A stretch of 59,567 nt of DNA from an uncultured Piscirickettsiaceae bacterium (GTDB taxonomy: Bacteria; Pseudomonadota; Gammaproteobacteria; GCF-002020875): NCBI GenBank assembly GCA_964344435.1, contig CAYFNH010000003.1, positions 1 through 59,567 on the forward strand, given 5' to 3'. Every line of letters begins with the position of its first letter. Within the stretch, counting starts at the first letter, position 1. The translations under genes were made by a program, and so were the position numbers. Of this stretch, positions 1-14,297 are shown in pieces. The notes below the pieces were generated by a model. It saw only the letters and a program-made list of their open reading frames with translations. It was not told the origin of the DNA and searched no databases.

Positions 1-3000
1 TCGATCGACTGCAACAGTGCATCCACTTCATCGGAACCATCCCCACTATTCCACTCCATACTGTCTGGGGAGAGCTTGATCTCTGTTGTCTTGGTAATCG
101 GGTCATAGTCGATCGCATACTTGAATGAATAATCGTCAGCAGACAGATTAGCCCCGGTATCGTCAGTAAGGGAGATCACGGTTCCATGAACGCGTATCCA
201 GTCCCCTGCAACCACATTTTGCACCACAACCTTGATGCCACCAATATTTTGGATACTGTCTTCGTTCAATCCTGCTGACGATGCGAAAGTCAGCCCATCA
301 AAGACGGATACATAAGCACCACCGCCATCTGCATCCTCCTCCTCATAGAAAACCACATCCTGAGCAGGATCACCGCTTTCTACAGTCAATGTGGGAGGTT
401 GATTAGCTGGACTTTTAACAACCGTAAAGAGGTTATCACTAACGTATTGTCCCCCTTGGTCATCCACAATCCTTTCAACTTTGATGGTTCTGGACTGCGC
501 AAGAATCGATTCCGAACTGGAATAGGCAATCCCACTAATCAATTCTGAAATTTCTGCACTATTCCATGAACCTGTAAGAGTGACCACTGCCTGACCTGTT
601 ACAGCATCTATTGGGGAGATCTCATAGTCATAGTTTGCCACCGAATTTGTTGCGCTAGACACCGATCCAGAGGCCTCTCCAACCAAATTAATTGCCGTCC
701 CTCCAACAATTAGCTGCTCAGCTGCTTCACTGGAAAGATTGGTAATTGACAAGACCAGCTCGGTGATTGTGCCACTCAACTCGACTGGTGTTGCTGTAGC
801 TCCAGCAAACAGTCCTGCCGTCTGCTCACCAGCATACTCGTAAGTCACAACACCATCTGTATGGTATGGCAAATCATTGATTGAATATACATTGATCACG
901 GTAGAAAGCGCGCTATCCTGTAATCCAACAGCATCATCCGACGCAACCCCTAAGCTTCCCCCATCGTCTCGCAAAGTCTGAATGGATATCTTGCGAGTAG
1001 GATTGGCACCACTCACATCGGGATCATCCCCCACATTGGTAAATTTGAGATCATTGATTAAGCTAATGAGCTGTTCTGATGACCAATCCCCTGTAAGTAC
1101 CAGATCTTTTGCTCCTGCAATTGGATCCCCATTAGGATCCATCGCCTCAACAACCTGATACTGAAATTCTGGCAGACTCGTAAATGGCACTGCAGTTGCT
1201 TCGGTCATGTTCTGCGAAAGATCTATTTCAGCCACTCCAAGCAGAATCAGATCATCCAGCGCCACCCCCTCAACACGAACCACCAACTGATTAACATTCT
1301 GATTTCCATCATCCAAACCAAACACTGCCGCTTGACTGTCTGCGAGAGGAAAGAGCTGTACCGGGCTCGGTGCTGAGTCTTGGTTGGGATAGTTATCCGA
1401 GGTCTCATAAAAGTGCTGCTGTTGTGGAATAACATCGGCCTCCACACTCAGTGTGGGTGGTAGCAGTACTGCAACGGTGGCAGAAACCCCAGAGAGTTGT
1501 GCGGTATCCACCCCTCCAAACTCATTTCCACCATCATCAATCACCAGCTCCAGTGCAATCTCACGATTCCCCTCTACCGGATTGGGGTTATCATTCTGGT
1601 AACGGATCGAGCGGATAAAATCGGAAATCTCATTCTGATTCCACTCCCCCTCCATGGAGATCAACAGGCGCCCATCATTCCCTTCACCATAGCTGATGAC
1701 CGTACCATCTGCCAGTTCAGTAACCACCCCCTGTGTAAAGACCAGAGGCACCGCTTCAGCCGGACTTCCCACCAGCAACATCTCTTGTGCATCCCCTGGG
1801 GTTACCCCAGTTACCGAGAAGACCAATCGTTGAATGGTCTGCCAATCCTCAATCGGATCAATATCGAGACTAGGAAACAGGGCCTTAGATGCCTCGGCAG
1901 GAGAGCCATAAGGAACCGGTTTAGTTGGCTCACCAGATAGAGTCGGCGGATTGTTGACCGGGGTGATATTGACATCCAGAGTAAACGGCTCACTCACCAA
2001 CCCCTCTGCACTGCCGTCATTTTCCGTTACCGTCCAGGTGATGGAGCGGGTGGGAGTCAGTCCATTCTGAGTAGGGTCTTCTCCTCCGCTGCTCTTGAAC
2101 AGCACGTTGAGCATGGCGTCCTGATAATCGGCATACGAACCTGCCCCGGTCAGGGTCAAGGTGCCCACACCATTTTCAACCACATACTCTGCCTGAATCG
2201 AACTTCCCTCTGGTGGGGTAAAACTCAGTTCATCGGTTGCCAGCGCATTGTTGATGGTGATGGTAGCTCCCAGGAGCTGGTCACCGGTATTGTCTACATC
2301 GGTGACATTAAGCTGCCCCTGAAGGGGAAGATCGCCCTCCTTGAATACCAGCACCCCGTCGACCATCAATACTGGGGCATCATTGACCTCGGAAAGACTA
2401 ACGATCACTTGTGCGGTGGACTCATCTCCATCCACATCGCGAATGGTATAGGTAAAGCTGTCAACTCCGTTGTAGTTAGGATCCGGGGTATAGGTAAAGC
2501 TACCATCTGCACTGATCACTACGGTACCGTGTTCCGGCTGCCCGGCAACAAACCAGGTGTGTTTACCATCCCCCAACTGGTCGTTGGAGGCGAGTGTACC
2601 GGTCACGATGCCATCCTCCTCGCCAGTCAGCAGGTCATTAAAGGCGGTAGGCACAGCATTTTGTTGAACCTCTTCAACTTTAACCTCTTCTTCCACTTCA
2701 ACCACTTCAACAACCGGGGCGAGCGGCTCTTCTCCCCCTTCTCCTTCGCCCTCCTCTTCACCTTCACCATCGACCAGGGCGGCTTGCTGGGCCAACAGTT
2801 CACCCTCGCCTTCTGCCTCCTCCTCATCATGGGTTACTACAAAATCGGGCGGGGGTGGCAGTGCCTCTTCAAAGGTAGCCAGCAGGGACGCCGGTGCCTC
2901 GAATGCGGTTGCCGGTGCGCCCGGCTTGCTGCTGACTGCGGTAGCCATACCGGGTTCGTCGAGGGTTACGGTGCCGCGCCCGTTTGCATCGGAGACGTCG

Positions 3001-3755
3001 AGAATACCGTCTTTATGGACAAAGGTACTGGAGCCGTCCTCCTCGATAATGCCCTCCATTTCGGAACCACGAACACCAATCTGTGCAGTCGGAGTCTTGA
3101 TGGTGGTGTGGGTACCCTTGTCCAGCCCCCCCAATTTACCACTGGCGTAACGGAAGAAGCCGGAGATTACGGTGGCCTCGAACTGGCCACTCTCCACCCC
3201 CGGGGTGTAGTTGTAGTTTTCGATGATGGCACGGGTCTCTTTACCGAGCTGGAAGCTGGTGTCATCCAGCATTCTCAGGTTGGCGAAGGAGCGACCGATG
3301 GTCTCGATCACATCATCCTGATAGATGGGATCCCCTTCATTGAGGGTACGCACCACACCATCCGCCCCCTTGGCAGTGGCCTGAGCATCGCCCCCCAGCT
3401 CATCGATGGTGCCGATCGGGTCACCGAGCAGCCCGGGAATCGAGAGCGAACCGGCAGGTCCGGCAACCTCGAATGAATCTACGTTAACCAGTAGTTTTTG
3501 AACAGTTTCCGGAAGAACGACCGCACCATAAGGGGTCTCCAGGGTGGGGGGTACATCGGCTGAAAAATACTCCTCGACCCGGATCTCTTCCCCCAGATCC
3601 CCACGAATAATGAGGTCGTCCCCATCGCGCAGGTAATCCCCCTTGAGCATCAATTCCGATGAGAGGATGGTAAAGCTGTTCTCTTCGGGCAGCAGCGACT
3701 CCGCCGCCATGGCCACTGCATCCAGTGATCGGTCGTTAAAGGTCTGAACCGCCAT
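1..3755 (-). CDS. Giant secreted adhesin/T1SS substrate (partial, runs off the left edge): BapA-prefix-like N-terminus, FecR-like domain, acidic linker, cadherin/Ig-like repeats
   Basis: Hand translation from ATG at 3755 (MAVQTFNDRSL...); the frame was spot-checked and agrees with base 1, and the ORF is missing from the track, consistent with no stop in the window. Motifs: DYLRDGDDLIIRG..EEIRVEEYF; GDPIYQDDVIET..IKTPTAQIGVRGS (FecR-like); HGTVVISADGSFTYTPDPNYNGVDSFTYTI (cadherin-like/Ig); repeats opened by VNDAP/VNNPP/INDLP/NQPP. Confidence 0.8.
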   Translation of the reverse strand, partial: MAVQTFNDRSLDAVAMAAESLLPEENSFTILSSELMLKGDYLRDGDDLIIRGDLGEEIRVEEYFSADVPPTLETPYGAVVLPETVQKLLVNVDSFEVAGPAGSLSIPGLLGDPIGTIDELGGDAQATAKGADGVVRTLNEGDPIYQDDVIETIGRSFANLRMLDDTSFQLGKETRAIIENYNYTPGVESGQFEATVISGFFRYASGKLGGLDKGTHTTIKTPTAQIGVRGSEMEGIIEEDGSSTFVHKDGILDVSDANGRGTVTLDEPGMATAVSSKPGAPATAFEAPASLLATFEEALPPPPDFVVTHDEEEAEGEGELLAQQAALVDGEGEEEGEGEGGEEPLAPVVEVVEVEEEVKVEEVQQNAVPTAFNDLLTGEEDGIVTGTLASNDQLGDGKHTWFVAGQPEHGTVVISADGSFTYTPDPNYNGVDSFTYTIRDVDGDESTAQVIVSLSEVNDAPVLMVDGVLVFKEGDLPLQGQLNVTDVDNTGDQLLGATITINNALATDELSFTPPEGSSIQAEYVVENGVGTLTLTGAGSYADYQDAMLNVLFKSSGGEDPTQNGLTPTRSITWTVTENDGSAEGLVSEPFTLDVNITPVNNPPTLSGEPTKPVPYGSPAEASKALFPSLDIDPIEDWQTIQRLVFSVTGVTPGDAQEMLLVGSPAEAVPLVFTQGVVTELADGTVISYGEGNDGRLLISMEGEWNQNEISDFIRSIRYQNDNPNPVEGNREIALELVIDDGGNEFGGVDTAQLSGVSATVAVLLPPTLSVEADVIPQQQHFYETSDNYPNQDSAPSPVQLFPLADSQAAVFGLDDGNQNVNQLVVRVEGVALDDLILLGVAEIDLSQNMTEATAVPFTSLPEFQYQVVEAMDPNGDPIAGAKDLVLTGDWSSEQLISLINDLKFTNVGDDPDVSGANPTRKISIQTLRDDGGSLGVASDDAVGLQDSALSTVINVYSINDLPYHTDGVVTYEYAGEQTAGLFAGATATPVELSGTITELVLSITNLSSEAAEQLIVGGTAINLVGEASGSVSSATNSVANYDYEISPIDAVTGQAVVTLTGSWNSAEISELISGIAYSSSESILAQSRTIKVERIVDDQGGQYVSDNLFTVVKSPANQPPTLTVESGDPAQDVVFYEEEDADGGGAYVSVFDGLTFASSAGLNEDSIQNIGGIKVVVQNVVAGDWIRVHGTVISLTDDTGANLSADDYSFKYAIDYDPITKTTEIKLSPDSMEWNSGDGSDEVDALLQSI

Positions 3756-3853: not shown

Positions 3854-4192
3854 TCAAAGGCAGCGAAAATAGGCACAATATTGCTGATTTATCTTCTGCA
3901 GCACCGTTTTCTCCAGCCGCCCATAGCATTTGACCGGGTTACTTTTCGATACCACAAAGGATTTACGTAACATTAGCTTGGAGTCGACAGGGAGATCGCC
4001 AGACTCCAACATCGCCCTTGTAATCAGCACCTCATCATCATACAGACGATCGATCTTGCTACTCATCGGCAGACCGATAAAATCATCGAAGGGAAGGTTA
4101 TCTTTGAATACCAGTACCGGTCTTCTTTTGCTCTGTTTCAGATCACTAAAATAGAATTCACACAGAACGATATCGCCTTCTGCTACTTCCAT
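3854..4192 (-). CDS. PemK/MazF-family endoribonuclease toxin
   Basis: GDIVLCEFYFSDLKQSKRRPVLV N-terminal motif, 112 aa, overlaps the upstream small gene. Confidence 0.85.
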   Translation of the reverse strand: MEVAEGDIVLCEFYFSDLKQSKRRPVLVFKDNLPFDDFIGLPMSSKIDRLYDDEVLITRAMLESGDLPVDSKLMLRKSFVVSKSNPVKCYGRLEKTVLQKINQQYCAYFRCL

Positions 4193-4386
4193 ACCAGGTC
4201 TTCATCACTATAGAGCCACTCTGTTACGGTAGATGCGCTATGGTCAGAAAGTGCCTGTACATCATGATCCATTTGGCCTTTTACAGGAAAAATCAATATT
4301 TCAACCTGATGATCAATAAACTCGGGGGGGATTTTCAGAGTTAGCTCATCAGAGTGTGGCGTGGTAATCTCTCTCAACAACGTCAT
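4183..4386 (-). CDS. Putative antitoxin (about 67 aa) with an acidic C-terminal W..SDEDLVW motif
   Basis: Small gene overlapping the toxin start; GGAG ribosome-binding site before ATG 4386 (the track start at 4407 is probably too long). Confidence 0.65.
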   Translation of the reverse strand: MTLLREITTPHSDELTLKIPPEFIDHQVEILIFPVKGQMDHDVQALSDHSASTVTEWLYSDEDLVWK

Positions 4387-4444: not shown

Positions 4445-5944
4445 TTACTCCTGCAACCTGGGTAACAACAGTGCCAGCCGATAGTGTGCCTCGGCATACT
4501 CCTTGTTGAGCTTGATGGCGGTCTCCAGTGACATCTGTGCCTTGCGGAAGTCCCCCATCTTCTCCAGCACCAGCGCCAGATGGTAGTAGGCGTTGGGGAA
4601 TTTTGGATTGATATTGATCGCCTTGGTGAACATACTGACTGACTCATCCAGCTCGGGCTTGGTGACCGGGGTACCATCGGCGGCTACCTGCAGCCCACCC
4701 CCCAGCAGTTTTGCCAGCTCATAGTAGGCCATGGCATGACTATTATCGATATCGATCGCCACAGTATAGTACTTGCAGGCAGACTCATATTCCTCCGGGT
4801 CACGCATCAGTAATGCCAGCCGATAGTAGGCATCGGCAAAATTGGGATCGATGGCAATTGCTTTCTCGAAGTTGCTCTTGGCTTCCACCAGCTCATCATG
4901 ACGCACCAGCAACAGCCCCAGGTGGTAGTGACCCAAGGCATGCTCCTCACTCAGCTCAACGGTACGGTTGTAGTGGGTACGCGCCTCATCGTCTTCCCCC
5001 TCCTCTTCCAGCAGTAGCGCCAGATTGTAGTGGGCTTCCGGGAATTCGGGCTTGATCTCGATGGTCTTGAGGAAATACTCCCGTGCAGTAGCCAGATCGC
5101 GCTGACTATATTGCAGCATCGCCAACTGGAAGTACGTCTGCTCATCCTCCGGGTAGTACTCTATCGATTTCTTGAAGTTCTCCAGTGCCAATGTCGGCTC
5201 ATTCAGCTCTTCCAACAGCATCGCCAGCTGGAAGTAGGCCTTGGCATACCCGTTATCGAGGCTGATGGCCTGCTCCAGCATACTGCGTGCCTCGTCCAGC
5301 GCCTCTCGCTTCTTCAGCATCAGACCAAGATTGTAGTAGGCCTTGGCATATTCCGGATCGATTTCAACCACCCGGCGCAGCAGCTGCTCCGCCTCCTCCG
5401 GCTCAGGCTCCAGTAGCGGAGTACCATCGGTAGTACTTTTGCTGCCGGTTGCCAGTAGTTTGGCCAGATAGTAATGGGCCTCACGATAGTCTGGATCGAT
5501 ATCAATCGCCGTAGTGTAGTTTTTGCGCGCCTCCTCGAACTCTTCCGGTGCAATCAGCAGGCGGGCAAGATTGTAGTAGGCGGGGGCATAGTTGCTGTCG
5601 AGCTCGATCGACTGAATCAGGTTGTACTTAGCCTCCTCGGTCGCCTCCATCTCCACAAACAGGGAGGCCATATTGGAGTAGGTCATCGCCTTTTCCGGAT
5701 CGATCTCTATCGACTGCTGGAAACGTTCACGGGCCTCTTCAAATTTCCTGGCGCGCTGCAACAGCAGACCAAGATAGCGATAGGCCTCGGCATGTTCAGG
5801 TACCAGCTCGATCACCTTCTCCAGATGGGGCTGAGCTCGATCATCCTCTCCATCGGCAACATAGAGCAGCGCCAGCTGAAAGCGAGCATCCGAGAAGTCC
5901 GGATTGATCTCAATCGCCTTTTCCAGGTGTTCTTTTGGATTCAT
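4445..5944 (-). CDS. Cytoplasmic all-TPR protein (about 13-14 34-aa TPRs)
   Basis: Repeated A(Y/H)(Y/F)xLAxLL...AIEIDP(D/E) units; no signal peptide; 19 bp downstream of the cyclase. Confidence 0.85.
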   Translation of the reverse strand: MNPKEHLEKAIEINPDFSDARFQLALLYVADGEDDRAQPHLEKVIELVPEHAEAYRYLGLLLQRARKFEEARERFQQSIEIDPEKAMTYSNMASLFVEMEATEEAKYNLIQSIELDSNYAPAYYNLARLLIAPEEFEEARKNYTTAIDIDPDYREAHYYLAKLLATGSKSTTDGTPLLEPEPEEAEQLLRRVVEIDPEYAKAYYNLGLMLKKREALDEARSMLEQAISLDNGYAKAYFQLAMLLEELNEPTLALENFKKSIEYYPEDEQTYFQLAMLQYSQRDLATAREYFLKTIEIKPEFPEAHYNLALLLEEEGEDDEARTHYNRTVELSEEHALGHYHLGLLLVRHDELVEAKSNFEKAIAIDPNFADAYYRLALLMRDPEEYESACKYYTVAIDIDNSHAMAYYELAKLLGGGLQVAADGTPVTKPELDESVSMFTKAININPKFPNAYYHLALVLEKMGDFRKAQMSLETAIKLNKEYAEAHYRLALLLPRLQE

Positions 5945-5963: not shown

Positions 5964-8237
5964 TTACTTGGATGTCAGTACCCAGACACCATCCCACTCA
6001 CCCTCGGGTGGGTTGGCCTTCATGTGTTCACAACGCTCGATGTACATCTGTGAAGGCTTGTCCTTATCGTAACACTTCAACGACTCCTGGAACTGCCCAA
6101 TCGCGGCATCCCAGTTGGCTTCGTTCCAGTACTTGATTCCATTATTGAACAGACCCACTGCATCAATCATGTTGGGGAAGCTCTCGTTGTCATGGTAGTC
6201 AAGCACCTCGTACACACCGACCGGCTCGGTCTTGCCCTTGACGATTACATTATCGACCTTACGGGTGCGGTAGGTGCCCTTGCAGGCATCCAAGGTATAG
6301 TTGCTGACCAGAATGTGGGCGCCATACTGTTTACAGGCACTCTCCAGGCGAGCCGCCGTATTCACACCATCACCAATCACGGTGTAGTCCATGCGTTTGG
6401 AGGAGCCGATATTACCGGAGACAATGGCATCGGTATTTACCCCCATACCGTGATCGATCGGTGGCTTGCCCTCGGAGGCACGCTTGGCATTGAAGACCTT
6501 GAGTTCCGTCATCATTCCGATCGCGGCACGCACACCACGATCAGGGTCATCCTCATGAGGGATCGGGGTGCCGAAGATCGCCATGATCGCATCCCCGATA
6601 AACTTGTCGAGCATTCCCCCCTGGCCGGTGATCACATCGACCATCACCTCGAAGTATTCGTTGAGCAGTTTTACGGTACCCTGTGCACCCAACTCTTCGG
6701 TAATGGTGGTAAAGCTGCGCACATCGGAGAAGAGTACGGTACCAATTCCCTGTTTGCCGCCCATGATATCTTCCTGGCTCTGGTCGTCCAGCAGTTGATC
6801 CGCCAGGGTTGGATCCATGTAGCGGGACATGGTGGATTTCATCCGCTTCTCGCTGCTGATATCCTCCAGCATAATCATCGAACCCAGATTCTCTCCCTCA
6901 CTCCCCTTCAATGGCAGCAGGGTGATATTGAGCGAGACCGCCTCTTCGCCAAAAGTCAGTTCACGATCCGGCAGGATATCAATATCCTCTACCGTCTCCA
7001 GCTTGTCCGCCAGCCACTGATTGGCCTCACTACTGAAGAATTCGACCGCATTCTGCCCAATCACCTCATCCATCCGGTAGATCTTCATCATATTGATGCC
7101 GGACTGGTTACAGGTGGCAATCTTGCCCTCGTTGATGGTGATCACCCCGTTACTCATCGAGGAGAGAATGCTCTCGTTGTAGTTCATGGTGTTCTGTACA
7201 TCGGCAAAGAGCTTGGCATTCTCGATACCGATGGAGATCTGCGAGGTGAATGCCTTGAGCCGCTTCTCATCCTCGTCGGTAAAGACGCCGCCATGCTTGT
7301 TGAGCACCTGACTGACACCGATCACCTTGCCCTCTTTATTGATAACCGGAACGCAGAGCACGGAACGGGTGAAGTAACCGGTCTGCTTGTCGAAGGTGGG
7401 GTTAAAGCGCAAATCGGCATAGGCATAGGGAATATTCATCACCTCGCCACTCTGGAACACCGCTCCGGCAATTCCCATATGGTTGGGAAAGCGGATCACA
7501 TCCTTCTTGCCCAGCCCCTCACCCACCTCGGTGTAGAGTTCGTTGGTGGACTCGTCATTGATGAAGAGGGTGGAACGGTCGGCATCCAACATGGTGGTGA
7601 TGGTGGTCATGATCTTCGCCAGCAACGGGCTCAGCTCGATCTCCGAGGAGATCTGCGAAACCACATCGAGGAACTCCAGCTCCTGTTTACGTGAGTTCTC
7701 GATCTGCTCAACGATCACATTACCCTGAATGGCGACCGCCGCCTGCATCGTCATCGATTCCAGCAGCCCCAGATCTTGATCCGTGAATTCACCATCCATC
7801 TTGTTGAGAATCTGCGAAACACCGATGGTCTCCCCGTTTGGGGTACGCAGGGGCGCACAGAGAATACTCTTGGTACGGAACCCGGTACGCATATCGACCG
7901 ACTTGTCAAAACGATCATCGGAGTAGGCGTCGTTAATCACCACCCCTTCATCATTACTGAAGGCCCAGCCTGCAATACCCTTGGTGTTGAGGATACGGAT
8001 TTCACGGGTAAAACTTCCCTGAGCGATACGGGAGTAGAGCTCCCCGGTATGTTCATCATTGAGGAAGATGGTGCCACGCTCGGCATTGATGGTGGTTGTG
8101 GTCAGGTTGACCAACCGCCCCAGCGCATCGTCCAAGCTCTTGCTGGTCGCCAGATCATTGGTGACCTTGAGCAGCATCTCCAGGAAGTGTTCCCGTTTAT
8201 CAAAGCGCTCATCCAGGTCCGAATTATAGGTCATCAT
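5964..8237 (-). CDS. Soluble class III adenylate cyclase, GAF-GAF-PAS-cyclase (CyaB-like) with a helical C-terminal tail
   Basis: Two GAF domains with NK..F...D(E) signatures; catalytic motifs FSDVRSFT, DKFIGDA and DYTVIGDGVNTAARLE (Lys plus Thr, adenylyl class IIIb). Confidence 0.9.
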   Translation of the reverse strand: MMTYNSDLDERFDKREHFLEMLLKVTNDLATSKSLDDALGRLVNLTTTTINAERGTIFLNDEHTGELYSRIAQGSFTREIRILNTKGIAGWAFSNDEGVVINDAYSDDRFDKSVDMRTGFRTKSILCAPLRTPNGETIGVSQILNKMDGEFTDQDLGLLESMTMQAAVAIQGNVIVEQIENSRKQELEFLDVVSQISSEIELSPLLAKIMTTITTMLDADRSTLFINDESTNELYTEVGEGLGKKDVIRFPNHMGIAGAVFQSGEVMNIPYAYADLRFNPTFDKQTGYFTRSVLCVPVINKEGKVIGVSQVLNKHGGVFTDEDEKRLKAFTSQISIGIENAKLFADVQNTMNYNESILSSMSNGVITINEGKIATCNQSGINMMKIYRMDEVIGQNAVEFFSSEANQWLADKLETVEDIDILPDRELTFGEEAVSLNITLLPLKGSEGENLGSMIMLEDISSEKRMKSTMSRYMDPTLADQLLDDQSQEDIMGGKQGIGTVLFSDVRSFTTITEELGAQGTVKLLNEYFEVMVDVITGQGGMLDKFIGDAIMAIFGTPIPHEDDPDRGVRAAIGMMTELKVFNAKRASEGKPPIDHGMGVNTDAIVSGNIGSSKRMDYTVIGDGVNTAARLESACKQYGAHILVSNYTLDACKGTYRTRKVDNVIVKGKTEPVGVYEVLDYHDNESFPNMIDAVGLFNNGIKYWNEANWDAAIGQFQESLKCYDKDKPSQMYIERCEHMKANPPEGEWDGVWVLTSK

Positions 8238-9054
8238 ACTCCTCCAGTTTATTTCGCAGAGTCATAATTGTCTGTTGTAGCTGTACCACATCATTATTGA
8301 GTGCCCGGCGTTCCGCCTGCACCTTGTCTTCACAGAGCGCCTTGCCACGCTCCAACTCTTCGCGCAACCGGCCAATGGTAGCCATATGCTGCTTGATCTC
8401 TTTATTGCCCGCCGAAACCGCCTTCTGGATACGATCCTGCTCCAACTGTTTCTGACGCTCGGTCTCGTCTCGCAGAGATTGAATCATCTGCTTGAACTGG
8501 GCAATCTCCTTGTTGCCCGCCGAGACTGCCTTCTGGATGCGCTCCTGCTCCTTCTCTTTCTGCCGTTCGAGCTCATCACGCAGTGACTGCACCATATTGC
8601 GAAACTGGTGGGTCTCCTTGTTGGCGGCAGAGACCGCCTTCTGTACCCGCTCCTCCTCCAGCCCCTTCTGTCGCTCCATCTCATCACGCAGTGACTGGAT
8701 CATGCTCTTGAACTGGGCGATCTCCTTGTTGCTGGAAGAAACCGCCTTCTGGATACGCTCCTGCTCTTTCTCTTTTTGACGCTCCAGCTCATCTCGCAGT
8801 GATTGCACCATATTGCGAAACTGGTGGGTCTCCTTGTTGGCGGCAGAGACTGCCTTCTGCACCCGCTCCTCTTCGATCCCCTTCTGTCGCTCCATCTCAT
8901 CACGCAGCGACTGAATCATGGTCTTGAACTGGTGGCTCTCCTTGTTGGCAGCGGTACGCACCATCTGTACCGCCTCCTCCTTGGCCACCTCGCCACGCTC
9001 CAGGTTGTCACGCAAAATGGTGATGGTCTGCTTCAGATGAGCAACCTCAATCTC
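8224..9054 (-). repeat. Intragenic 108-bp tandem repeat (about 7.7 units) with a near-identical 216-bp higher-order duplication
   Basis: Units start at residues 18, 54, 90, 126, 162, 198, 234 and 270; shadow ORFs 8484-8687 and 8700-8903 are near-identical and offset by 216 bp. Confidence 0.85.
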
Positions 9055-9105
9055 CAGTTCACGGTTCAGTACCGTAAGCTTCTTTTTTTTCTGTTCCGCA
9101 CTCAT
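8224..9105 (-). CDS. Coiled-coil protein built of 36-aa tandem repeats
   Basis: NKE..QF..M.QSLRDE.ERQK..E.ER.QKAVS unit in exact 36-residue register; the stop overlaps the cyclase start by 14 bp. Confidence 0.8.
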   Translation of the reverse strand: MSAEQKKKKLTVLNRELEIEVAHLKQTITILRDNLERGEVAKEEAVQMVRTAANKESHQFKTMIQSLRDEMERQKGIEEERVQKAVSAANKETHQFRNMVQSLRDELERQKEKEQERIQKAVSSSNKEIAQFKSMIQSLRDEMERQKGLEEERVQKAVSAANKETHQFRNMVQSLRDELERQKEKEQERIQKAVSAGNKEIAQFKQMIQSLRDETERQKQLEQDRIQKAVSAGNKEIKQHMATIGRLREELERGKALCEDKVQAERRALNNDVVQLQQTIMTLRNKLEEYDDL

Positions 9106-9217
9106 AGCTATTTTGAAGTCTACCGTAAAAACAACCCTGTTTGACCACGAAAAGTGAAAATGAGGAAATTCTTAGCGCTTGATAATCAGCACCTTAACCA
9201 CTAACTATCGGTATACC

Positions 9218-10564
9218 CTAACGCTCTCTCAAGGCACTCTGTTGCGCCTTCAGAATCGGCTTCAAGAGGTAATCCAGTACCGTTTTCTGCCCCGTCAACA
9301 GCTCTACCGTTGTGGTCATCCCGGTGATGATGGGTAACGGATCCTCCTCACTGCCCAGCGCATTTTTCTCGGTACGCAACCGCACTCGGTAGTAGCGCTC
9401 CCCCTTCTCATCCACAATGGTGTCGGGGCTGATCTGCTCCAACTGAGCAGGAATGCCGCCATAGATGGTGGGATCGTAAGCGGTGAACTTGACCATCGCC
9501 TGCTGATCCGGGCGCAGAAAGCCGATATCGGATGGACGGATTCGGGCCTCGATCAGCAGTTGATCATTGAGTGGCACCACCTCCATGATCTCCATCCCCG
9601 GCTGGATCACCCCACCGATGGTGGTGACTTGAATCCGTTTTACTTCGCCATAAACCGGTGAGCGGATCTCGGTACGCTGCAGTCGGTCATTGAGGGTATT
9701 CTGCTGTTCCAGAGTGCGCGAAAGCATCGCCTTTGCCTCACTCAGCTCCTGGGTTGCCTGCGCTGCAAAGGAGCGGTGCTCTCCCTCCACCTTGCGCTCA
9801 ATCTCTTCGATGGCCGCCTCGATACGGGGGATCGCATTCTGGTTGGACTCATACTCGGTCTTCAAGCTGTGCAGTTCGCGCTCCAGACGGGCAAGATCCC
9901 GTTTCAGGCGCACCAGCTCGATCTCCGGCATCACCTTGATCTTGCGTACCCGCTCGGCAATCTCCATCTCTTTCTGTGCGTTTTCATATTCGGACTTGGA
10001 GAGCTGCAGACCCTGCTCCAGATTGCGAAGATTAACTTCGCGCTCCCTCAACTCCTGTTCACGCTGCTGGCGCTGTGCACTCAAGACCTCCAGAGCCGTA
10101 TCCAGTTCGGACTGGCGCACCTGATAGTTGGCCTCTTCACTGCTGGCAAAGTCGGGCTGTTCGTCGAGCACCTCCTGTGGGGGTTGATAGGTTTCACCAC
10201 TGGCCTCGGCCTCGAGGCGGGCGATCTTGGCCTTCAGATAGAGTGACTCCAGCCGGTTCTGCTTGGCCTCGGAGATGTACTGGGTGCCGGAGAGACGGAT
10301 AACCACCTGCCCTTTCTCGACAATCTCTCCCTCCTTGACCAGGATCTCCTCGACTATTCCCCCTTCCAGATTCTGCACAATCTGCACCTGTGAGGATGGG
10401 ATCACCCGCCCTTCACCACGGGTTACCTCATCCAGTACCGCCCAGTTGGCCCAGTAGAGTGCTACCCCAATGACCACCACCACCGAGATCAGCAAGAGAT
10501 GATTCAAGGGCCGGATGCGGTTGCTGGAGACCTTGGTCCACTCCTCGTAGCTGGTTTTTGCCAT
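9218..10564 (-). CDS. HlyD-family type I secretion periplasmic adaptor (LapC/PrtE-like)
   Basis: N-terminal TM, LDEVTRGEGRVIP..VQNLEGG, long coiled coil, IRSPVYG, C-terminal TVLDYLLKPI...ALRER. Confidence 0.92.
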   Translation of the reverse strand: MAKTSYEEWTKVSSNRIRPLNHLLLISVVVVIGVALYWANWAVLDEVTRGEGRVIPSSQVQIVQNLEGGIVEEILVKEGEIVEKGQVVIRLSGTQYISEAKQNRLESLYLKAKIARLEAEASGETYQPPQEVLDEQPDFASSEEANYQVRQSELDTALEVLSAQRQQREQELREREVNLRNLEQGLQLSKSEYENAQKEMEIAERVRKIKVMPEIELVRLKRDLARLERELHSLKTEYESNQNAIPRIEAAIEEIERKVEGEHRSFAAQATQELSEAKAMLSRTLEQQNTLNDRLQRTEIRSPVYGEVKRIQVTTIGGVIQPGMEIMEVVPLNDQLLIEARIRPSDIGFLRPDQQAMVKFTAYDPTIYGGIPAQLEQISPDTIVDEKGERYYRVRLRTEKNALGSEEDPLPIITGMTTTVELLTGQKTVLDYLLKPILKAQQSALRER

Positions 10565-10860: not shown

Positions 10861-12996
10861 TTACCCCTTCTCGGTGTGAGTCCAGACGCCATCCCAGTCA
10901 GCCGCTGGTGGGTTGTCGATAAAGTGCTGACAACGCTCCACGTAGGTGATGGAGGGGCCATCGCTTTCGAGGATGGTGAGCGCCTTCTCGAAGAGCTGCT
11001 TAGCCGCCACGAAATCCATCTCTTTGTATTTCTGCAGCCCCTGCAGATAGATCGGCACCACATCGGCCATTGGTCCACTGGTCTGGTTCTTGCGGTCAAT
11101 CACATCATAGACGGTGACCGGCTCCTTCTTGCCCACCACGCGGATACGATCCAGCTCACGGGTATCAATATTGTCCTTGGCCTGTTCGTAGGTACTCTCG
11201 GAGATCATCGAGTAGTTCTTGTAGAACTTGTTGGCCCCTTCCAGACGCGCCGCGAGATTCACCGAGTCTCCCATCATGGTGTAGTCCATACGCTGCTGGG
11301 AACCCATGTTACCAACAATCATCGGTCCGGTATTGACACCCATCCGCACCCGGAACTCCACCGGCAACCAATCCTTCTCGATCTGCTCCTGACGGAACGG
11401 CACCAGGAACTTCTGCTGGTCGATGATACTGTAACAGGCACGGGTGGCGTGGTCTGGCTGCTCCAGTGGCGCCCCCCAGAAGGCGATAATCGCATCTCCT
11501 TCGAACTTGTCGATGGTACCGCCGTGATCCGCAATGATGTCACACATGGCCGTCAGGTACTCATTGAGCAGTGCCACCAGCTCTGCCGGGGTGATCTTCT
11601 CGGAGATGGTGGAGAAACTGGCCACATCGGAGAAGAATGCGGTCATCTCGCGGCTCTCTCCACCTAGGGACATCTTGGAGGGGTCTTTCACCAGCGCATC
11701 GACCACGTCAGGAGAGAGGTACTGCCCGAACGCAGCAGTCACAAACCCCTTTTGGTCACGCTCCACCAGATAGTGGCGCAGATTGATCACCAGATAGGAG
11801 AGGAAGGCCGCTACCAGCACATAGCTCATGGAGAAGACCACTCCCTGATCGATATAGAGCTTGCCAGCGGCATAGATATATCCGCTCAACAACAGTGCAG
11901 TGACTGCAAAACTGATAGCGGGGGTAGAGATCATGCTAACCAGCAGCATCGCCACCATGACCGCCATCAACACCACAAACTCCTGCTCTTGTGAGGCGGG
12001 CTGCAGTGGAGTACCTCGCATCATGGTGTGAATTGCATCGGCGATGATCTCCACTCCGTAGACCATGCCCACCGGGGTATCAAACCAGTCATGAGAGACC
12101 TCCGAGGTATCCCCAACCACCACGATCTTGTCCTGGAACAGGAAAGAGAGCTCTTCCAACTCCTCCATGGCGATCTCCTGCTCCTCCTGTGGATCCTCCA
12201 TGCCTTCAAACAGGTACGGCAGATAAGGCCGCAACACTGTCATCGCACTGATAGAGGCATCGGTCTGGCTCAGAAAGGAGGCCCCCATTGTCAGTGAGGG
12301 GAAATCGATATGGAACTGGTTGTGATGATCAAGCGGGACTCTCAGCTCTCCTATGAGCAGATACTTCTGCCCCTCCACCTCGGTCAGCACCGGCTCGACA
12401 TCGTAGTACATCGCCAGCGCCTGAACCGCGAATGGCCAGCCATCCTCCATCTCGATGGTATCGTCCCGCACCCGTAGCTTGGAGAGGCTGGTGATGATCG
12501 AGCTGGAGGAGGTGATATTGGTATAGCCGCTCTTTGCAGAGCCATGATAGGCCTTGGTGGGATAGTTCATCCCCGTGGCCACATCCTCGTCATTGATCTG
12601 GGCCTGTGATACCAGCAGAGAGCTGCCGGTCCCTTTCAGCAGTTTGGCGGCCTTCTCATCCTCTCCGTAGGAGCTGGGGAAGTCAAACAGTACGTCAAGT
12701 GCAATCACCTTGGCCCCCAAGTCGTGAAGTGCACTGGCCATGGTGGCAATATCGGTACGACGTAGCGGGAAGCTGCGATACTCGTCAAAGAAGGCCTCGT
12801 CCATATTGAGGACAACAACCTGATCCTTGGAGAAGCCGGTCTGCTCCTCGTCTCCATAGGACATCCTCAAGATCTGACGAACCGAGAGGGTCTGCTCCTC
12901 GAGCAGGGCAAACGACTCGTTGTACTCTGCAGGAATCATCGCCATAAACAGCACGATGGTGATCAGTATGTCATAACGTCCCAGAATTTTTTTCAA
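10861..12996 (-). CDS. Membrane CHASE2-domain adenylate cyclase (class III)
   Basis: N-terminal TM, CHASE2 motifs (FPLRR, VIALDVLF, KIVVVG, TPVG..YGVEI.A), three TMs, FFSDVASFS, DKFEGDA and DYTMMGDSVNLAARLEG; TTG start with a GGAGG RBS. Confidence 0.92.
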   Translation of the reverse strand: MKKILGRYDILITIVLFMAMIPAEYNESFALLEEQTLSVRQILRMSYGDEEQTGFSKDQVVVLNMDEAFFDEYRSFPLRRTDIATMASALHDLGAKVIALDVLFDFPSSYGEDEKAAKLLKGTGSSLLVSQAQINDEDVATGMNYPTKAYHGSAKSGYTNITSSSSIITSLSKLRVRDDTIEMEDGWPFAVQALAMYYDVEPVLTEVEGQKYLLIGELRVPLDHHNQFHIDFPSLTMGASFLSQTDASISAMTVLRPYLPYLFEGMEDPQEEQEIAMEELEELSFLFQDKIVVVGDTSEVSHDWFDTPVGMVYGVEIIADAIHTMMRGTPLQPASQEQEFVVLMAVMVAMLLVSMISTPAISFAVTALLLSGYIYAAGKLYIDQGVVFSMSYVLVAAFLSYLVINLRHYLVERDQKGFVTAAFGQYLSPDVVDALVKDPSKMSLGGESREMTAFFSDVASFSTISEKITPAELVALLNEYLTAMCDIIADHGGTIDKFEGDAIIAFWGAPLEQPDHATRACYSIIDQQKFLVPFRQEQIEKDWLPVEFRVRMGVNTGPMIVGNMGSQQRMDYTMMGDSVNLAARLEGANKFYKNYSMISESTYEQAKDNIDTRELDRIRVVGKKEPVTVYDVIDRKNQTSGPMADVVPIYLQGLQKYKEMDFVAAKQLFEKALTILESDGPSITYVERCQHFIDNPPAADWDGVWTHTEKG

Positions 12997-13143
12997 ACCC
13001 GACCTCCCGTGGTTTTATATATCTTTTTTCCAGCTATAAAGTAGCCATAGTAGGTTATACGGCGCTGTACTCCAATAATAAATCGGATTTTCCTTATTAT
13101 CGCCCCGGAATTCCTCAGATTCTCTGAGCAGCCATCCCGGCAC

Positions 13144-13179
13144 AAAAAAACCCACAGCCTGCAACTGCAGACTGTGGGT
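13144..13179 (-). terminator. Rho-independent terminator downstream of the CHAT/336-aa operon
   Basis: ACCCACAGCCTGCA-AC-TGCAGACTGTGGGT hairpin followed by T7 on the minus strand. Confidence 0.75.
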
Positions 13180-13213
13180 CGAGCCAACAGGCTTGAGAGG
13201 TTGTGGCGAGGTA

Positions 13214-14224
13214 CTAGCCCTCATCCTCCTCTTTCAGCTTGGTGTAGAGCTCACCTTCATGGGAGAGCAACTCACCCAACTTCAGCTTGCGGATGTGCTC
13301 CAACATCTGAGGACGCATATCGATCTCGTCCAGGTTCTCGCTGAAGAACTGGACATACATATCCAGTGCTCCCACCTTGATGCCGTCATTGTCCAGTGAG
13401 ATTGCCTCCAGCAACTGGTCGCCACCTCGGGCATCCTTGCGAGCCATGATCTCGGACTCCTCGGACTGATCCACCCAGACAAATGAGCTGGCACGTCTCA
13501 CCTTCTCGGAAGCCAGCTCCCCATTCTTCAACAGCTCGACCTTGTAGTCGTGCTTGCCTGGAGCCATATCGCTGAGCGCGTGACGAACCACCAACTGCCC
13601 CTGCGGAGCCGGAATCATGACCACCTGATCGTCAATGGTCAGACGATAGCTGAACTCGCTGTAGTTCTCCGCAGTGATCTTCGATGCCTTCTTGACAACC
13701 GCATTCTCGATCACGTTGTCCCAGATCAGCTCGGGCCATGCTGCAGAGAGCTTGTAAGGTGCGCGCTTACTGTGGCTTGCCGCACCCAGCTTGATCTTCA
13801 GGCCACGACGTACGGTGGTGTACTTTTGTCCCTTCTTGAAGCGGTTGCCCAAGCTGGCCACCAGATCACCAGAACCCTTGGTTGCTTCGCCCAGGGCGCC
13901 TTCGGTTGCCTCTGCACCCTCCGCAGTAATCATCACTACGGTGTTTCCACTCAGAGCACGTGACATCCCGGTCTGCTGATTGAGGAAGGTTCCCTTGCCA
14001 TTGGCACCGGTACGGATCTGATAGCCGGGAAAGAGGAACTTGTTACGTCTTACCTTTCTCCACTTCTTGCCATTTTTGCTGTACTCGATCTGTCCATCCA
14101 CATTCATGATCATGGTGACAGGAGCTCCTTTCTTCTTTTTGCCTTTTGCCAATGCCAGGTCGCCCTGCACAATCAGCAGAACCGACATGACGGCCACTGT
14201 AAATATTTTCATAAAACGTCTCAT
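13214..14224 (-). CDS. Exported hypothetical protein: signal peptide, FecR-like N-domain, beta-sandwich, helical C-terminus (possibly DUF928-like)
   Basis: Signal peptide ending ALA|K; VDGQIEYS..W.KV..NKFLFPGYQIRTG; 73 bp downstream of the CHAT gene. Confidence 0.7.
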   Translation of the reverse strand: MRRFMKIFTVAVMSVLLIVQGDLALAKGKKKKGAPVTMIMNVDGQIEYSKNGKKWRKVRRNKFLFPGYQIRTGANGKGTFLNQQTGMSRALSGNTVVMITAEGAEATEGALGEATKGSGDLVASLGNRFKKGQKYTTVRRGLKIKLGAASHSKRAPYKLSAAWPELIWDNVIENAVVKKASKITAENYSEFSYRLTIDDQVVMIPAPQGQLVVRHALSDMAPGKHDYKVELLKNGELASEKVRRASSFVWVDQSEESEIMARKDARGGDQLLEAISLDNDGIKVGALDMYVQFFSENLDEIDMRPQMLEHIRKLKLGELLSHEGELYTKLKEEDEG

Positions 14225-14297
14225 TTCAATACTCCTTCATCATCCAAAAACAGAAATAACGCAAAAACCGACCGGTATTTTGCCCACTATAAACCAG

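What the first reader, a model, noticed from the sequence alone, without database searches (positions are those of the whole stretch)
8224..9105. 36-residue-repeat coiled-coil rod translationally coupled to the GAF cyclase
About 7.7 units sit in exact 36-aa register. Units 3-4 and 5-6 form a near-identical 216-bp duplication, indicating recent expansion. A 36-residue period (10 helical turns, 7+11+7+11) predicts an almost unsupercoiled straight rod of roughly 40 nm. The stop overlaps the cyclase start by 14 bp. Inference: a length-variable scaffold or molecular ruler that positions or regulates the soluble cyclase; repeat number could tune it.
Basis: partly seen in the sequence, partly recalled or inferred. 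Interest (0 to 1): 0.68.

Follow-up and report, generated by a model that had tools for sequence, protein, structure and literature searches.

The report
Conserved helical-rod partner of GAF cyclases
This gene encodes a long, single-helix rod built from exact 36-residue repeats; it belongs to an undescribed protein family that almost always sits directly in front of, and overlaps, one type of cAMP-making enzyme, so it is very probably that enzyme's dedicated partner subunit.

Summary
ORF 8224-9105 (-) encodes a 293-aa protein made of eight units in exact 36-residue register. Its stop overlaps the start of a GAF-GAF-PAS class III cyclase by 14 nt (11 nt from the second ATG).

"Recent expansion" is not supported here. 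The 216-bp blocks are only 84-86% identical. The two amino-acid-identical units differ by ten synonymous changes. All complete orthologues in five other GTDB species-representative MAGs, and in one metagenome contig, are also 293 aa, with dN/dS 0.02-0.06.

The new result is that the protein belongs to an uncurated family:
- 147 of 151 relatives carry their own 36-aa period, with 3 to 24 units.
- R23 is 98% conserved.
- In 79 of 80 independent metagenomic loci, a CyaB1/CyaB2-like cyclase follows within 400 nt on the same strand, usually with a start/stop overlap.

AlphaFold2 predicts one continuous helix, and the hydrophobic period is 3.60 residues. A subfamily fuses the same repeats to an Apyc1-like MBL domain, again overlapping a GAF cyclase.

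Most likely it is a stoichiometric coiled-coil partner or scaffold of the cyclase. Binding and any ruler function are untested. Unit number does vary elsewhere in the family, including one clean 216-bp indel between 99.4%-identical contigs.

The parts
8224..9105 (-). Rod gene: 293 aa, a 36-residue-repeat all-helical protein (stop codon 8224-8226).
   Evidence: The ORF is. dN/dS is 0.017-0.057 against six orthologues. AlphaFold2 predicts helices 3-36 and 42-292, mean pLDDT 86.
9079..9105 (-). Basic N-terminal tail MSAEQKKKK (aa 1-9), ahead of the repeat array.
   Evidence: Read from the sequence. It is identical in all orthologues.
8971..9078 (-). N-cap unit (aa 10-45). Its first half is degenerate. 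It keeps the family's H-L-K-x-T-I-x-x-L-R-D-x-L-E core.
   Evidence: Unit HMM hit at aa 20-37. The corresponding N-cap unit of relatives carries an E-[NI]-R-H-L-K signature that the window's unit lacks. AlphaFold2 places a helix break after it, at aa 37-41.
8323..8970 (-). Six canonical 36-aa units: 8863-8970, 8755-8862, 8647-8754, 8539-8646, 8431-8538 and 8323-8430. They alternate between A and B types, giving a 72-aa (216-bp) super-repeat.
   Evidence: Register and identities are. Unit HMM scores are 32-46 bits. Relatives show the same A/B alternation.
8227..8322 (-). C-cap unit (aa 262-293), ending ...LRNKLEEYDDL.
   Evidence: Unit HMM hit. A colinear C-cap is present in 3-unit homologues. 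In 5 of 6 orthologues it ends ...LEEYDEL.
8239..8245 (-). GGAGGAG Shine-Dalgarno-like sequence for the cyclase. It lies inside the rod codons Leu-Glu-Glu.
   Evidence: Read from the sequence. A CTGGAG(G/A) motif ahead of the overlapping ATG recurs in many family loci.
8224..8237 (-). Overlap of the rod's 3' end with the cyclase start (ATGATG; 14 nt, or 11 nt from the second ATG).
   Evidence: The overlap is conserved in all orthologous loci and common across the family.
5964..8237 (-). GAF-GAF-PAS class III cyclase (757 aa), of the CyaB1/CyaB2 type. GAF-B carries an N-K-x4-F-x3-D-E motif. The catalytic domain has the Lys/Asp pair typical of adenylate cyclases.
   Evidence: Pfam domains are. 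The best PDB match is 1YKD, the Anabaena CyaB2 tandem GAF (E 1.5e-37). The motifs were read directly from the translation and interpreted from general knowledge.
4445..5944 (-). 499-aa TPR protein, 19 nt downstream of the cyclase. It is a clade-specific third member of the module.
   Evidence: It is conserved in orthologous loci. A homologue begins within about 0.4 kb of the cyclase's C-terminal tail in four loci, which are the long-rod relatives L025, L042, L082 and L104.
9204..9232 (-). Weak sigma-70-like promoter match about 100 nt upstream of the rod start.
   Evidence: It matches 9 of 12 positions, and the number of sites in the region is not above the shuffled expectation. It is only a lead.

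Best explanation
**Proposal.** The gene encodes a dedicated, stoichiometrically co-produced partner subunit of the downstream CyaB1/CyaB2-type adenylate cyclase.

**What the protein is.** It is one continuous alpha-helix of about 250 residues, plus a short N-terminal helix. The helix is built from 36-residue units. Each unit carries ten hydrophobic core positions in the pattern 11+7+7+11, a period of 3.60 residues, so the hydrophobic stripe does not wind around the helix.

**How it most likely works.** The rod most likely self-associates into a nearly straight coiled-coil of about 40 nm. It is made together with the cyclase by translational coupling: the cyclase's ribosome-binding site and start codon lie inside the rod's last codons. 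It probably docks to the cyclase. It would then act as an oligomerisation or tethering scaffold for a cAMP-autostimulated enzyme. In a sister subfamily the same repeats tether an Apyc1-like MBL (putative cyclic-nucleotide hydrolase) domain to the same kind of cyclase.

**Shown here:**
- the repeat anatomy;
- the predicted continuous helix;
- strong purifying selection;
- the near-obligate, overlapping gene pairing with this cyclase clade;
- the MBL-repeat fusions.

**Inferred, not shown:** self-association, physical binding to the cyclase, and any effect on cyclase activity or position.
For: **A real family, not generic coiled-coil similarity**
- 364 cluster representatives match at E<=1e-3, and 147 of the best 151 have their own 36-aa period.
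- 350 of 369 successive units are spaced exactly 36 aa apart.
- Unit positions R23 (98%), L15 (89%), E11 (86%), L22 (85%) and E27 (81%) are conserved.

**Gene pairing**
- A DNA pattern that specifies only the repeat found 120 metagenomic loci, which fall into 116 clusters at 90% identity.
- 79 of 80 loci with at least 700 nt downstream have a GAF domain within 400 nt on the same strand.
- 58 of 60 loci with at least 2.4 kb downstream show the full GAF-GAF-PAS-cyclase-tail order.
- The other neighbours differ between loci. In L010 the flanks are unrelated.
- In the 16 linked loci compared, the cyclases are 51-70% identical to the window's (14 of them over nearly the full length), consistent with one cyclase clade.

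**Coupling**
- Start/stop overlaps of 4-17 nt predominate among the 47 of 71 loci that overlap, and 15 more loci have gaps of 0-30 nt.
- The 14-nt overlap is conserved in all orthologues.

**Selection**
- dN/dS is 0.017-0.057 at dS 0.8-1.7.
- The rod is 88-98% identical between species. That matches the cyclase (89-95%) and exceeds the HlyD (72-84%) and TPR (77-83%) neighbours.

**Structure**
- AlphaFold2 with a 41-sequence alignment gives a single helix for residues 190-293, pLDDT 96.5.
- The full-length model has helices 3-36 and 42-292.
- The hydrophobic period peaks at 3.60 residues.

**Domain-fusion evidence**
- 18 MBL proteins of 613-643 aa carry 2-4 of these units at the C-terminus. None of 99 shorter homologues does.
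- In all three fusion-protein loci examined (two different fusion proteins), the fusion gene overlaps a downstream GAF-GAF-PAS-cyclase gene.
- Two repeat-less homologues are not next to cyclases.
- P0101 reads through from the repeats into a GAF domain.
Against: - No direct evidence of interaction, oligomeric state or effect on activity exists. AlphaFold2 was run on the monomer only.
- Unit number ranges from 3 to 24 beside cyclases that are 51-70% identical. This argues against a ruler matched to a fixed dimension of the enzyme.
- Translational coupling and synteny are also compatible with a purely regulatory subunit or a localisation factor.
- The MBL domain's similarity to Apyc1 is weak in the fusion proteins (Pfam E 0.047; PDB 7u2r E 0.001 for a repeat-less homologue).
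- P0101 may be a frameshift artefact rather than a natural fusion.
- No RNA data could be found.
Confidence: 0.6

Rival explanations
1. Allosteric regulatory subunit rather than scaffold. The helix binds along the tandem-GAF/PAS spine of the cyclase dimer and inhibits or primes it, as the small gamma subunit does for the tandem-GAF enzyme PDE6. Repeat number beyond a minimal three units would be largely incidental.
For: - The pairing and coupling evidence is the same as for the main explanation.
- The smallest complete members have only 3 units, about 108 aa and roughly 16 nm. From general knowledge, that is of the order of the length of a GAF-GAF-PAS-cyclase dimer.
- Polar positions flanking the core are conserved: E11, Q14, T18, R23 and E27.
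Against: - Every unit keeps the same conserved motif in exact register over as many as 24 units. That is hard to explain if only one short segment contacts the enzyme.
- The MBL fusions use the repeats as a C-terminal appendage, which looks more like a tether.
- Nothing tested here separates this rival from scaffolding.
Confidence: 0.2
2. Cytoskeleton-like or localisation factor. The rod forms filaments or binds a cell structure or membrane through its straight hydrophobic stripe or basic N-terminus, and recruits the cyclase to a subcellular site.
For: - The predicted helix is long and continuous, with a 3.6-residue period.
- The N-terminus MSAEQKKKK is polybasic.
- Length differs widely between lineages.
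Against: - There is no transmembrane segment or lipid-anchor motif in the sequence.
- The basic N-tail is not a family feature.
- There is no match to known filament families above their thresholds.
- No localisation data exist.
Confidence: 0.1
3. The ORF matters mainly as a translated leader that sets cyclase expression through coupling, and the protein itself has little function. Alternatively, the repeat array is a recent, unstable or mis-assembled expansion.
For: - The ORF overlaps the cyclase start, and the cyclase's Shine-Dalgarno sequence lies inside it.
- Contigs L007 and L008 end inside the array.
- Logan unitigs break at the 47-nt exact repeat.
Against: - dN/dS is 0.02-0.06, the length is 293 aa in six orthologues, and the motifs are conserved family-wide.
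- Ten synonymous and no non-synonymous differences separate the duplicated units.
- Unitig depth is consistent with the assembled copy number in four samples.
Confidence: 0.03
4. A secreted substrate or accessory of the neighbouring HlyD/AprE-type membrane-fusion protein (type I secretion).
For: The HlyD-family gene 9218-10564 lies directly upstream on the same strand, and this is conserved in the closest orthologous loci.
Against: - An HlyD homologue is present in only 5 of 120 family loci, whereas the cyclase is present in 79 of 80.
- No glycine-rich RTX repeats are visible in the sequence.
Confidence: 0.02

Closest known systems
Anabaena CyaB1/CyaB2 adenylate cyclases (tandem GAF, PAS, class III catalytic domain). 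This is the partner enzyme, not the rod.
   Same: The downstream gene has the same GAF-GAF-PAS-cyclase order. Its best solved relative is the CyaB2 tandem GAF, 1YKD. GAF-B carries the NKFDE-type motif of cyclic-nucleotide-binding GAF domains, and the catalytic domain has the Lys/Asp adenylate-cyclase residues (read; interpreted from general knowledge).
   Different: As far as I know, no dedicated coiled-coil partner gene has been described for CyaB1/CyaB2, and two of the five literature searches run, those aimed at such a partner, found none. Ligand and activity of this cyclase are untested.
Non-heptad coiled-coil rods with long sequence repeats, for example the Scy/FilP cytoskeletal proteins of Streptomyces (51-residue repeat mixing heptads and hendecads) and hendecad-based bundles.
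   Same: It is a long continuous helix with a fixed long repeat that mixes 7- and 11-residue segments, giving a near-straight hydrophobic stripe.
   Different: The period is 36 (11+7+7+11; 3.60 residues per turn), not 51. There is no sequence relationship. The size is 108-880 aa. The fixed genomic partner is a signalling enzyme. The oligomeric state is unknown.
Eukaryotic A-kinase anchoring proteins (AKAPs) and similar cAMP signalosome scaffolds.
   Same: The resemblance is functional only. A non-enzymatic helical protein is genetically tied to a cyclase, and in a sister subfamily the same repeats are fused to a putative cyclic-nucleotide hydrolase domain.
   Different: There is no homology and no evidence of binding. 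The Apyc1-like assignment of the MBL domain is weak.
PDE6 gamma subunit, a small dedicated regulator of a tandem-GAF enzyme.
   Same: It is a precedent that tandem-GAF enzymes can have a small dedicated partner polypeptide (general knowledge). PDE GAF domains are among the cyclase's best PDB matches.
   Different: PDE6 gamma is short and largely disordered, not a repeat rod. It is unrelated in sequence.
Signalling helix (S-helix) of multidomain sensors (PMC1592074).
   Same: Both are parallel coiled-coil-type helices of about 40 residues associated with GAF/PAS/cyclase proteins.
   Different: The S-helix lies inside one polypeptide between two domains, has five heptads and a central E-R-T signature. 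Here the unit is 36 aa with L-R-D-E-L-E, repeated 3-24 times in a separate protein.

Membership tests
Uncurated 36-residue-repeat family defined here | Successive units are spaced exactly 36 residues apart. | tested here: met
   The window protein has 8 units at aa 10, 46, 82, 118, 154, 190, 226 and 262. Across the family, 350 of 369 spacings equal 36.
Uncurated 36-residue-repeat family defined here | Unit motif E11, L/F15, L22-R23, L/M26-E27. | tested here: met
   The canonical units of the window score 32-46 bits against the family unit HMM.
Uncurated 36-residue-repeat family defined here | The gene lies directly upstream of, and on the same strand as, a GAF-GAF-PAS class III cyclase. | tested here: met
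   True for the window, for 79 of 80 evaluable loci and for 57 of 58 clusters at 70% identity.
Alpha-helical coiled coil with non-heptad (18/5) periodicity | A continuous alpha-helix across repeat boundaries. | tested here: met
   AlphaFold2 predicts a single helix for residues 190-293 (pLDDT 96.5) and helix 42-292 in the full-length model. These are predictions, not experiments.
Alpha-helical coiled coil with non-heptad (18/5) periodicity | Hydrophobic core positions recur with a period near 3.6. | tested here: met
   The Fourier peak is at 3.60 residues. Harmonic 10 of the 36-column family profile is the strongest. Core columns are 1, 4/5, 8, 12, 15, 19, 22, 26, 29/31.
Alpha-helical coiled coil with non-heptad (18/5) periodicity | Two or more helices pack together (self-association). 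| not testable with these tools
   Only monomer prediction was available. This needs SEC-MALS, analytical ultracentrifugation, a crystal structure or multimer modelling.
Pfam ApoO (PF09769) and BROMI_N (PF23431) | A domain-level match passing the family threshold. | tested here: not met
   Whole-sequence scores of 35.2 and 34.6 bits exceed the cut-offs only by summing weak repeat matches. Zero stretches pass on their own.
SMC / generic 'chromosome segregation ATPase' (names given by some sources to relatives) | A match to the SMC model at its curated cut-off. | tested here: not met
   TIGR02168 scores 17.6 bits against a cut-off of 567. No ATPase head is present.
Signalling helix (S-helix) | A central E-R-T signature, and a position between two signalling domains of one polypeptide. 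| tested here: not met
   The unit carries L-R-D-E-L-E with R at an e-type position. The protein is separate from the enzyme. The S-helix definition is taken from PMC1592074.
Scy/FilP-type 51-residue-repeat cytoskeletal proteins | A 51-residue repeat. | tested here: not met
   The only periods found are 36, 72 and 108 aa.
Type I secretion (RTX-type) substrate | Glycine-rich nonapeptide repeats, and conserved linkage to the secretion genes. | tested here: not met
   No such repeats are in the sequence. An HlyD homologue is present in only 5 of 120 family loci.
CyaB1/CyaB2-type cyclase (the neighbouring gene) | GAF-GAF-PAS-class III catalytic domain order, with a cyclic-nucleotide-type GAF motif. 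| tested here: met
   Pfam domains are and the best PDB match is 1YKD. N-K-x4-F-x3-D-E was read in GAF-B. Ligand binding and activity are not testable here.
AKAP-like scaffold (function, not homology) | Physical binding of the cyclase and of other cAMP-pathway enzymes. | not testable with these tools
   The evidence is indirect only: MBL-repeat fusions lie upstream of GAF cyclases.

The most novel reading that the evidence does not exclude
The rod is a periodic docking array, a bacterial counterpart of a cAMP signalosome scaffold. Each 36-residue unit, or each 72-residue A/B pair, would bind one GAF module. Unit number (3 to 24) would then set how many cAMP-autostimulated cyclase dimers, or in fused variants cyclic-nucleotide hydrolase domains, are held side by side. 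That would tune the cooperativity and threshold of a local cAMP switch, and in-frame 216-bp gains and losses would adjust it during evolution.
Probability: 0.12. Interest if true: 0.85.

Novelty: new variant of a known kind. Interest (0 to 1): 0.62.

Why it matters
CyaB1-type cyclases are a textbook case of a cAMP-autostimulated enzyme, and their tandem GAF domains are the model for mammalian phosphodiesterase regulation. Even so, the searches here found no described dedicated partner protein.

This locus points to a widespread, strongly conserved partner with no curated family model in the local Pfam and NCBIfam copies. It occurs in Gamma-, Alpha- and Betaproteobacteria and in MAGs labelled Acidobacteria and Latescibacterota. 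Its gene is fused by overlap to the cyclase gene. Its strict 36-residue, 3.6-residues-per-turn repeat is itself an unusual coiled-coil design.

If the rod binds the cyclase, it would:
- provide a first bacterial example of a structural scaffold organising a cAMP source, and in the fusion subfamily possibly a sink as well;
- offer a simple system for testing how scaffold length affects second-messenger signalling;
- justify a new family model, so that hundreds of 'hypothetical' or mis-named 'chromosome segregation ATPase' genes could be annotated.

Tried and rejected
- **Curated families.** Pfam and NCBIfam scans of the rod and of ten relatives gave only sub-threshold or repeat-summed coiled-coil matches. 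A precomputed hit to PF27935.1 on a few small members could not be identified, because that model is not in the local Pfam copy and no paper mentions it.
- **Solved structures.** A PDB sequence search with the rod found nothing.
- **First homologue search.** The word-indexed search found only three remote hits. The exhaustive HMMER search was needed to reveal the family.
- **Profile searches.** A 72-aa profile returned only proteins of 126 aa or less.
- **Locus retrieval.** I replaced it with a hand-built degenerate DNA pattern. The first version had one N too many and found nothing in the window. The corrected version worked.
- **Apparent long fusions.** The long ORFs in L016, L024, L074 and L109 are stop-free upstream stretches, not real domains.
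- **Solenoid alternative.** A helix-turn-helix solenoid (TPR, PPR or Sel1-like units of 34-36 residues) was considered, because Gly/Asn occur at unit positions 8-10. It was rejected because AlphaFold2 predicts an unbroken helix.
- **Other rejected readings.** S-helix, SMC, type I secretion substrate and leader-ORF-only readings are rejected as set out in the membership and rival sections.
- **Transcription evidence.** No RNA runs could be listed. The promoter and terminator scans were not above the shuffled background.
- **Literature.** Five literature searches were run, including one for the unidentified Pfam accession; none found a description of this family.

Full report
**1. What is in the sequence**

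The minus-strand ORF 8224..9105 encodes 293 aa. Self-comparison gives 55%, 57% and 49% identity at lags of 36, 72 and 108 residues. No other lag is above 20%. Tandem Repeats Finder reports periods of 108 and 216 bp, with scores 546 and 752.

Written in a 36-residue register, the protein has four parts:
- a basic tail, MSAEQKKKK;
- a degenerate N-terminal unit (aa 10-45);
- six canonical units (aa 46-261);
- a 32-residue C-terminal unit (aa 262-293).

The stop codon lies 14 nt inside the next ORF (5964..8237), a 757-aa GAF-GAF-PAS-class III cyclase. The sequence ...CTG GAG GAG TAT GAT GAC CTA TAA shows that the rod's Leu-Glu-Glu codons form a GGAGGAG Shine-Dalgarno-like element. Two ATGs follow. 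The second is better spaced, is the one used by the gene call on the source contig, and gives an 11-nt overlap.

**2. The duplication is old and the length is fixed in this lineage**

The 216-bp blocks are 84% and 86% identical in DNA. The longest exact repeat is 47 nt. Units aa 82-117 and aa 154-189 are identical in protein but differ at 10 of 108 nucleotides, and all ten differences are synonymous.

A scan of one genome per GTDB species found seven related loci in Gammaproteobacteria/'Piscirickettsiaceae' MAGs. All five complete genes, plus one more from a metagenome contig (L046), are 882 bp and 293 aa, and 88-98% identical in protein. Two further contigs end inside the array.

The gene order is conserved: MtxA-like, CHASE2 cyclase, HlyD-type, rod, GAF cyclase, TPR. 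So is the 14-nt overlap.

Between orthologues dS is 0.8-1.7 and dN/dS is 0.017-0.057. The rod is as conserved as the cyclase and more conserved than the HlyD and TPR neighbours.

Within genomes, the two identical-type units show dS of 0.15-1.1. Occasional conversion is possible, for example in L002. The eight-unit architecture nevertheless predates the split of all these species.

In four public samples, the unitig lying between the two copies of the 47-nt repeat has the same depth as the flanks, and no alternative joints appear. The array is therefore neither a recent expansion nor an assembly artefact. Only assembler contigs were available, not long reads.

**3. It belongs to a real family that is in no curated library**

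Pfam and NCBIfam give only sub-threshold or repeat-summed coiled-coil matches, and the PDB holds no relative.

An exhaustive HMMER search of 1.84 billion representatives found 364 proteins at E<=1e-3. Of the best 151, 147 have their own strongest internal period at exactly 36 residues.

A unit HMM finds 521 units in 152 proteins, with 350 of 369 successive spacings equal to 36. The unit consensus is V-Q-k-A-V-A-A-A-N-D-E-I-r-Q-L-K-a-T-I-a-A-L-R-D-E-L-E-k-a-R followed by six variable residues. Conservation is R23 98%, L15 89%, E11 86%, L22 85%, E27 81% and L26 76%.

The smallest complete members are about 108 aa: an N-cap, one canonical unit and a C-cap. The window protein has the same caps with six canonical units between them.

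**4. The family is tied to one cyclase clade**

I searched the metagenome collection with a degenerate DNA pattern that specifies only two repeat motifs 108 nt apart. All 120 loci returned contain a family ORF. They form 116 clusters at 90% identity and 84 at 70%.

Using HMMs built from the window's cyclase domains, the results are:
- 79 of 80 loci with at least 700 nt downstream have a GAF domain within 400 nt on the same strand.
- 58 of 60 loci with at least 2.4 kb downstream show the complete GAF, GAF, PAS, catalytic domain and C-terminal tail order.
- 57 of 58 evaluable clusters at 70% identity have the pairing.

In the 16 linked loci compared, the cyclases are 51-70% identical to the window's, 14 of them over nearly the full length. 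CHASE2 cyclase, HlyD and TPR homologues appear in only 5-6 loci each. In L010 the pair sits between unrelated genes on a 1-Mb contig.

Start/stop overlaps of 4, 8, 11, 14 or 17 nt predominate. In total 47 of 71 loci overlap and 15 more have gaps of 0-30 nt. A CTGGAG motif from the conserved C-cap 'LE' often sits just before the ATG.

**5. Structure**

AlphaFold2 with a 41-sequence colinear alignment predicts residues 190-293 as a single unbroken helix, pLDDT 96.5. The full-length model has helix 3-36, a break at 37-41 and one helix from 42 to 292, pLDDT 86. This rules out a helix-turn-helix solenoid.

Family-wide, the large hydrophobic residues occupy columns 1, 5, 12, 15, 19, 22, 26 and 29/31, with alanine at columns 4, 8 and 21. 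This reads as hendecad (1-11), heptad (12-18), heptad (19-25) and hendecad (26-36): ten core turns in 36 residues.

The Fourier peak for the window protein is at 3.60 residues. A helix of 251 residues is about 38 nm long. Self-association and handedness remain untested.

**6. Length across the family**

Complete-looking ORFs have 2-24 units, most often 4-5. The window's closest non-orthologous relatives have cyclases 65-70% identical and a TPR gene downstream. Their rods have 16-24 units in perfect register, with an alternating A/B 72-residue super-repeat. That super-repeat is the source of the window's 216-bp signal.

In another lineage, contigs L016 and L074 are 99.4% identical over 1.8 kb and differ by one clean 216-bp, two-unit indel. 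This is either true strain variation or an assembly collapse.

Unit number is therefore evolvable in steps of units or unit pairs. It is frozen at eight in the window's lineage. It is not matched to any fixed feature of the cyclase.

**7. Fusion evidence for function**

One representative, P0121, carries an MBL-fold domain in front of the repeats. Its homologues split in two:
- 18 proteins of 613-643 aa have 2-4 repeat units at the C-terminus.
- 99 shorter proteins have none.

In all three fusion-protein loci examined, which carry two different fusion proteins, the fusion gene overlaps a downstream GAF-GAF-PAS-cyclase gene by 14-17 nt. Two repeat-less homologues have no cyclase neighbour.

The MBL domain's best Pfam and PDB similarities are to the phage cyclic-nucleotide phosphodiesterase Apyc1. 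They are weak in the fusion proteins (Pfam E 0.047; 7u2r E 0.001 for a repeat-less homologue), although the precomputed hit is unmarked for P0311.

The repeats thus behave as the module that goes with the cyclase, whatever else is attached to them. P0101 reads from repeats into a GAF domain, but it looks frameshifted.

**8. The partner enzyme**

The cyclase's best solved relative is the Anabaena CyaB2 tandem GAF, 1YKD (E 1.5e-37). PDE5 and PDE2 GAF domains and bacterial class III catalytic domains follow.

GAF-B contains N-K-HGGV-F-TDE-D-E, the NKFDE-type motif of cyclic-nucleotide-binding GAF domains. The catalytic domain has D...K-F-I-G-D...D-Y-T...N-T-A-A-R, which is typical of adenylate cyclases. 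These motifs were read and interpreted from general knowledge of CyaB1/CyaB2 and class III cyclases. It is therefore probably a cAMP-stimulated adenylate cyclase.

**9. Interpretation**

Four lines of evidence point to a dedicated partner subunit of this cyclase that forms a straight helical rod:
- near-obligate pairing;
- conserved translational coupling;
- very strong purifying selection on every unit;
- reuse of the repeats as a C-terminal appendage on another enzyme at the same genomic position.

I put about 0.6 on a physically associated structural partner or scaffold, and about 0.2 on a primarily allosteric regulatory subunit. A localisation factor gets about 0.1. The leader-ORF, artefact and secretion readings get a few percent each. 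A strict molecular ruler is unlikely, given 3-24 units beside similar cyclases. A unit-number-dependent docking array remains possible, at about 0.12.

**10. Novelty**

No Pfam, NCBIfam or PDB entry accounts for the family, and five literature searches found no description. One unidentified newer Pfam accession, PF27935.1, is precomputed on a few small members. Public names are 'hypothetical protein' or automatic coiled-coil labels.

Coiled-coil scaffolds and non-heptad rods are known kinds. A 36-residue-period rod family dedicated to a bacterial cyclase is a new variant.

Noticed in passing
window 10861-18164 (-): A TPR-CHAT protein (14298-18164), an MtxA-like protein (13214-14224; DUF7354/MtxA_IG-like/MtxA_C) and a CHASE2 adenylate cyclase (10861-12996) lie in a row. 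The mtxA-CHASE2 cyclase pairing was described as typical of magnetotactic bacteria (PMC4439547). Here it occurs in Gammaproteobacteria/'Piscirickettsiaceae' MAGs with no magnetosome genes noticed, so the 'magnetotaxis-specific' label may be too narrow.
   Followed up: partly
window 9218-10564 (-): An HlyD/AprE-type membrane-fusion protein gene sits alone between the two cyclase genes. No ABC transporter or outer-membrane partner was seen among the Pfam-annotated genes called within 10 kb on either side of the rod gene. It is conserved in the orthologous loci but absent from most other family loci.
   Followed up: partly
window 5964-6170 and 10861-11070 (-) (the C-terminal ends of both cyclases): Both cyclases end in a similar tail of about 70 aa (...Y[IV]ERC[EQ]H...NPP..[EA][ED]WDGVW...). 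An HMM of this tail finds it after the cyclase catalytic domain in at least 58 of the 60 rod-linked loci with enough downstream sequence. Its role is unknown.
   Followed up: partly
window 3854-4386 (-): A PemK/MazF-like toxin gene (3854-4192) overlaps a 67-aa upstream ORF (4183-4386). This is probably a toxin-antitoxin pair, lying between the TPR gene and a giant adhesin-like gene.
   Followed up: no
window 1-3755 (-): The start of a very large protein (more than 2,100 aa on the source contig) with cadherin-like, Big_9 and LVIVD repeats. It runs off the window.
   Followed up: no
L132 8001-12192; L134 8001-12243; L135 3241-7483: Proteins of about 635 aa, made of an Apyc1-like MBL-fold domain plus 2-4 of the 36-residue units, overlap a downstream GAF-GAF-PAS-cyclase gene by 14-17 nt. 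Shorter homologues without repeats are not next to cyclases. This may be a cyclase plus cyclic-nucleotide-hydrolase pair held together by the repeats.
   Followed up: partly
L016 1261-2733 (-) versus L074 6562-8250 (+): Two contigs from different samples are 99.4% identical and differ by one clean in-frame 216-bp (two-unit) indel in the repeat array, giving 6 versus 8 units. It could be real strain-level copy-number variation or a short-read assembly collapse.
   Followed up: partly
L042 1344-3989; L025 3157-5376; L099 91-2520; L082 2-2167; L104 3989-5752: Relatives with 16-24 units keep an exact 36-residue register with no visible insertion or deletion over as much as 860 residues. They show a regular alternation of two unit types. 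All but L099, whose contig ends too soon to tell, have a TPR gene after the cyclase, as the window does.
   Followed up: partly
window 8588-8634 and 8804-8850: A 47-nt exact repeat inside the array breaks the Logan unitigs in all four samples. Two MAG contigs (L007, L008) end inside the array. Genes of this family are therefore likely to be truncated or labelled 'partial' in short-read assemblies, as many database entries are.
   Followed up: yes
proteins P0157, P0158, P0160, P0164, P0166, P0180, P0186: Some 3-unit family members carry a precomputed hit to Pfam PF27935.1. That accession is absent from the local Pfam copy and from the literature library. If it models this repeat, the family may already have a very recent Pfam entry.
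   Followed up: partly
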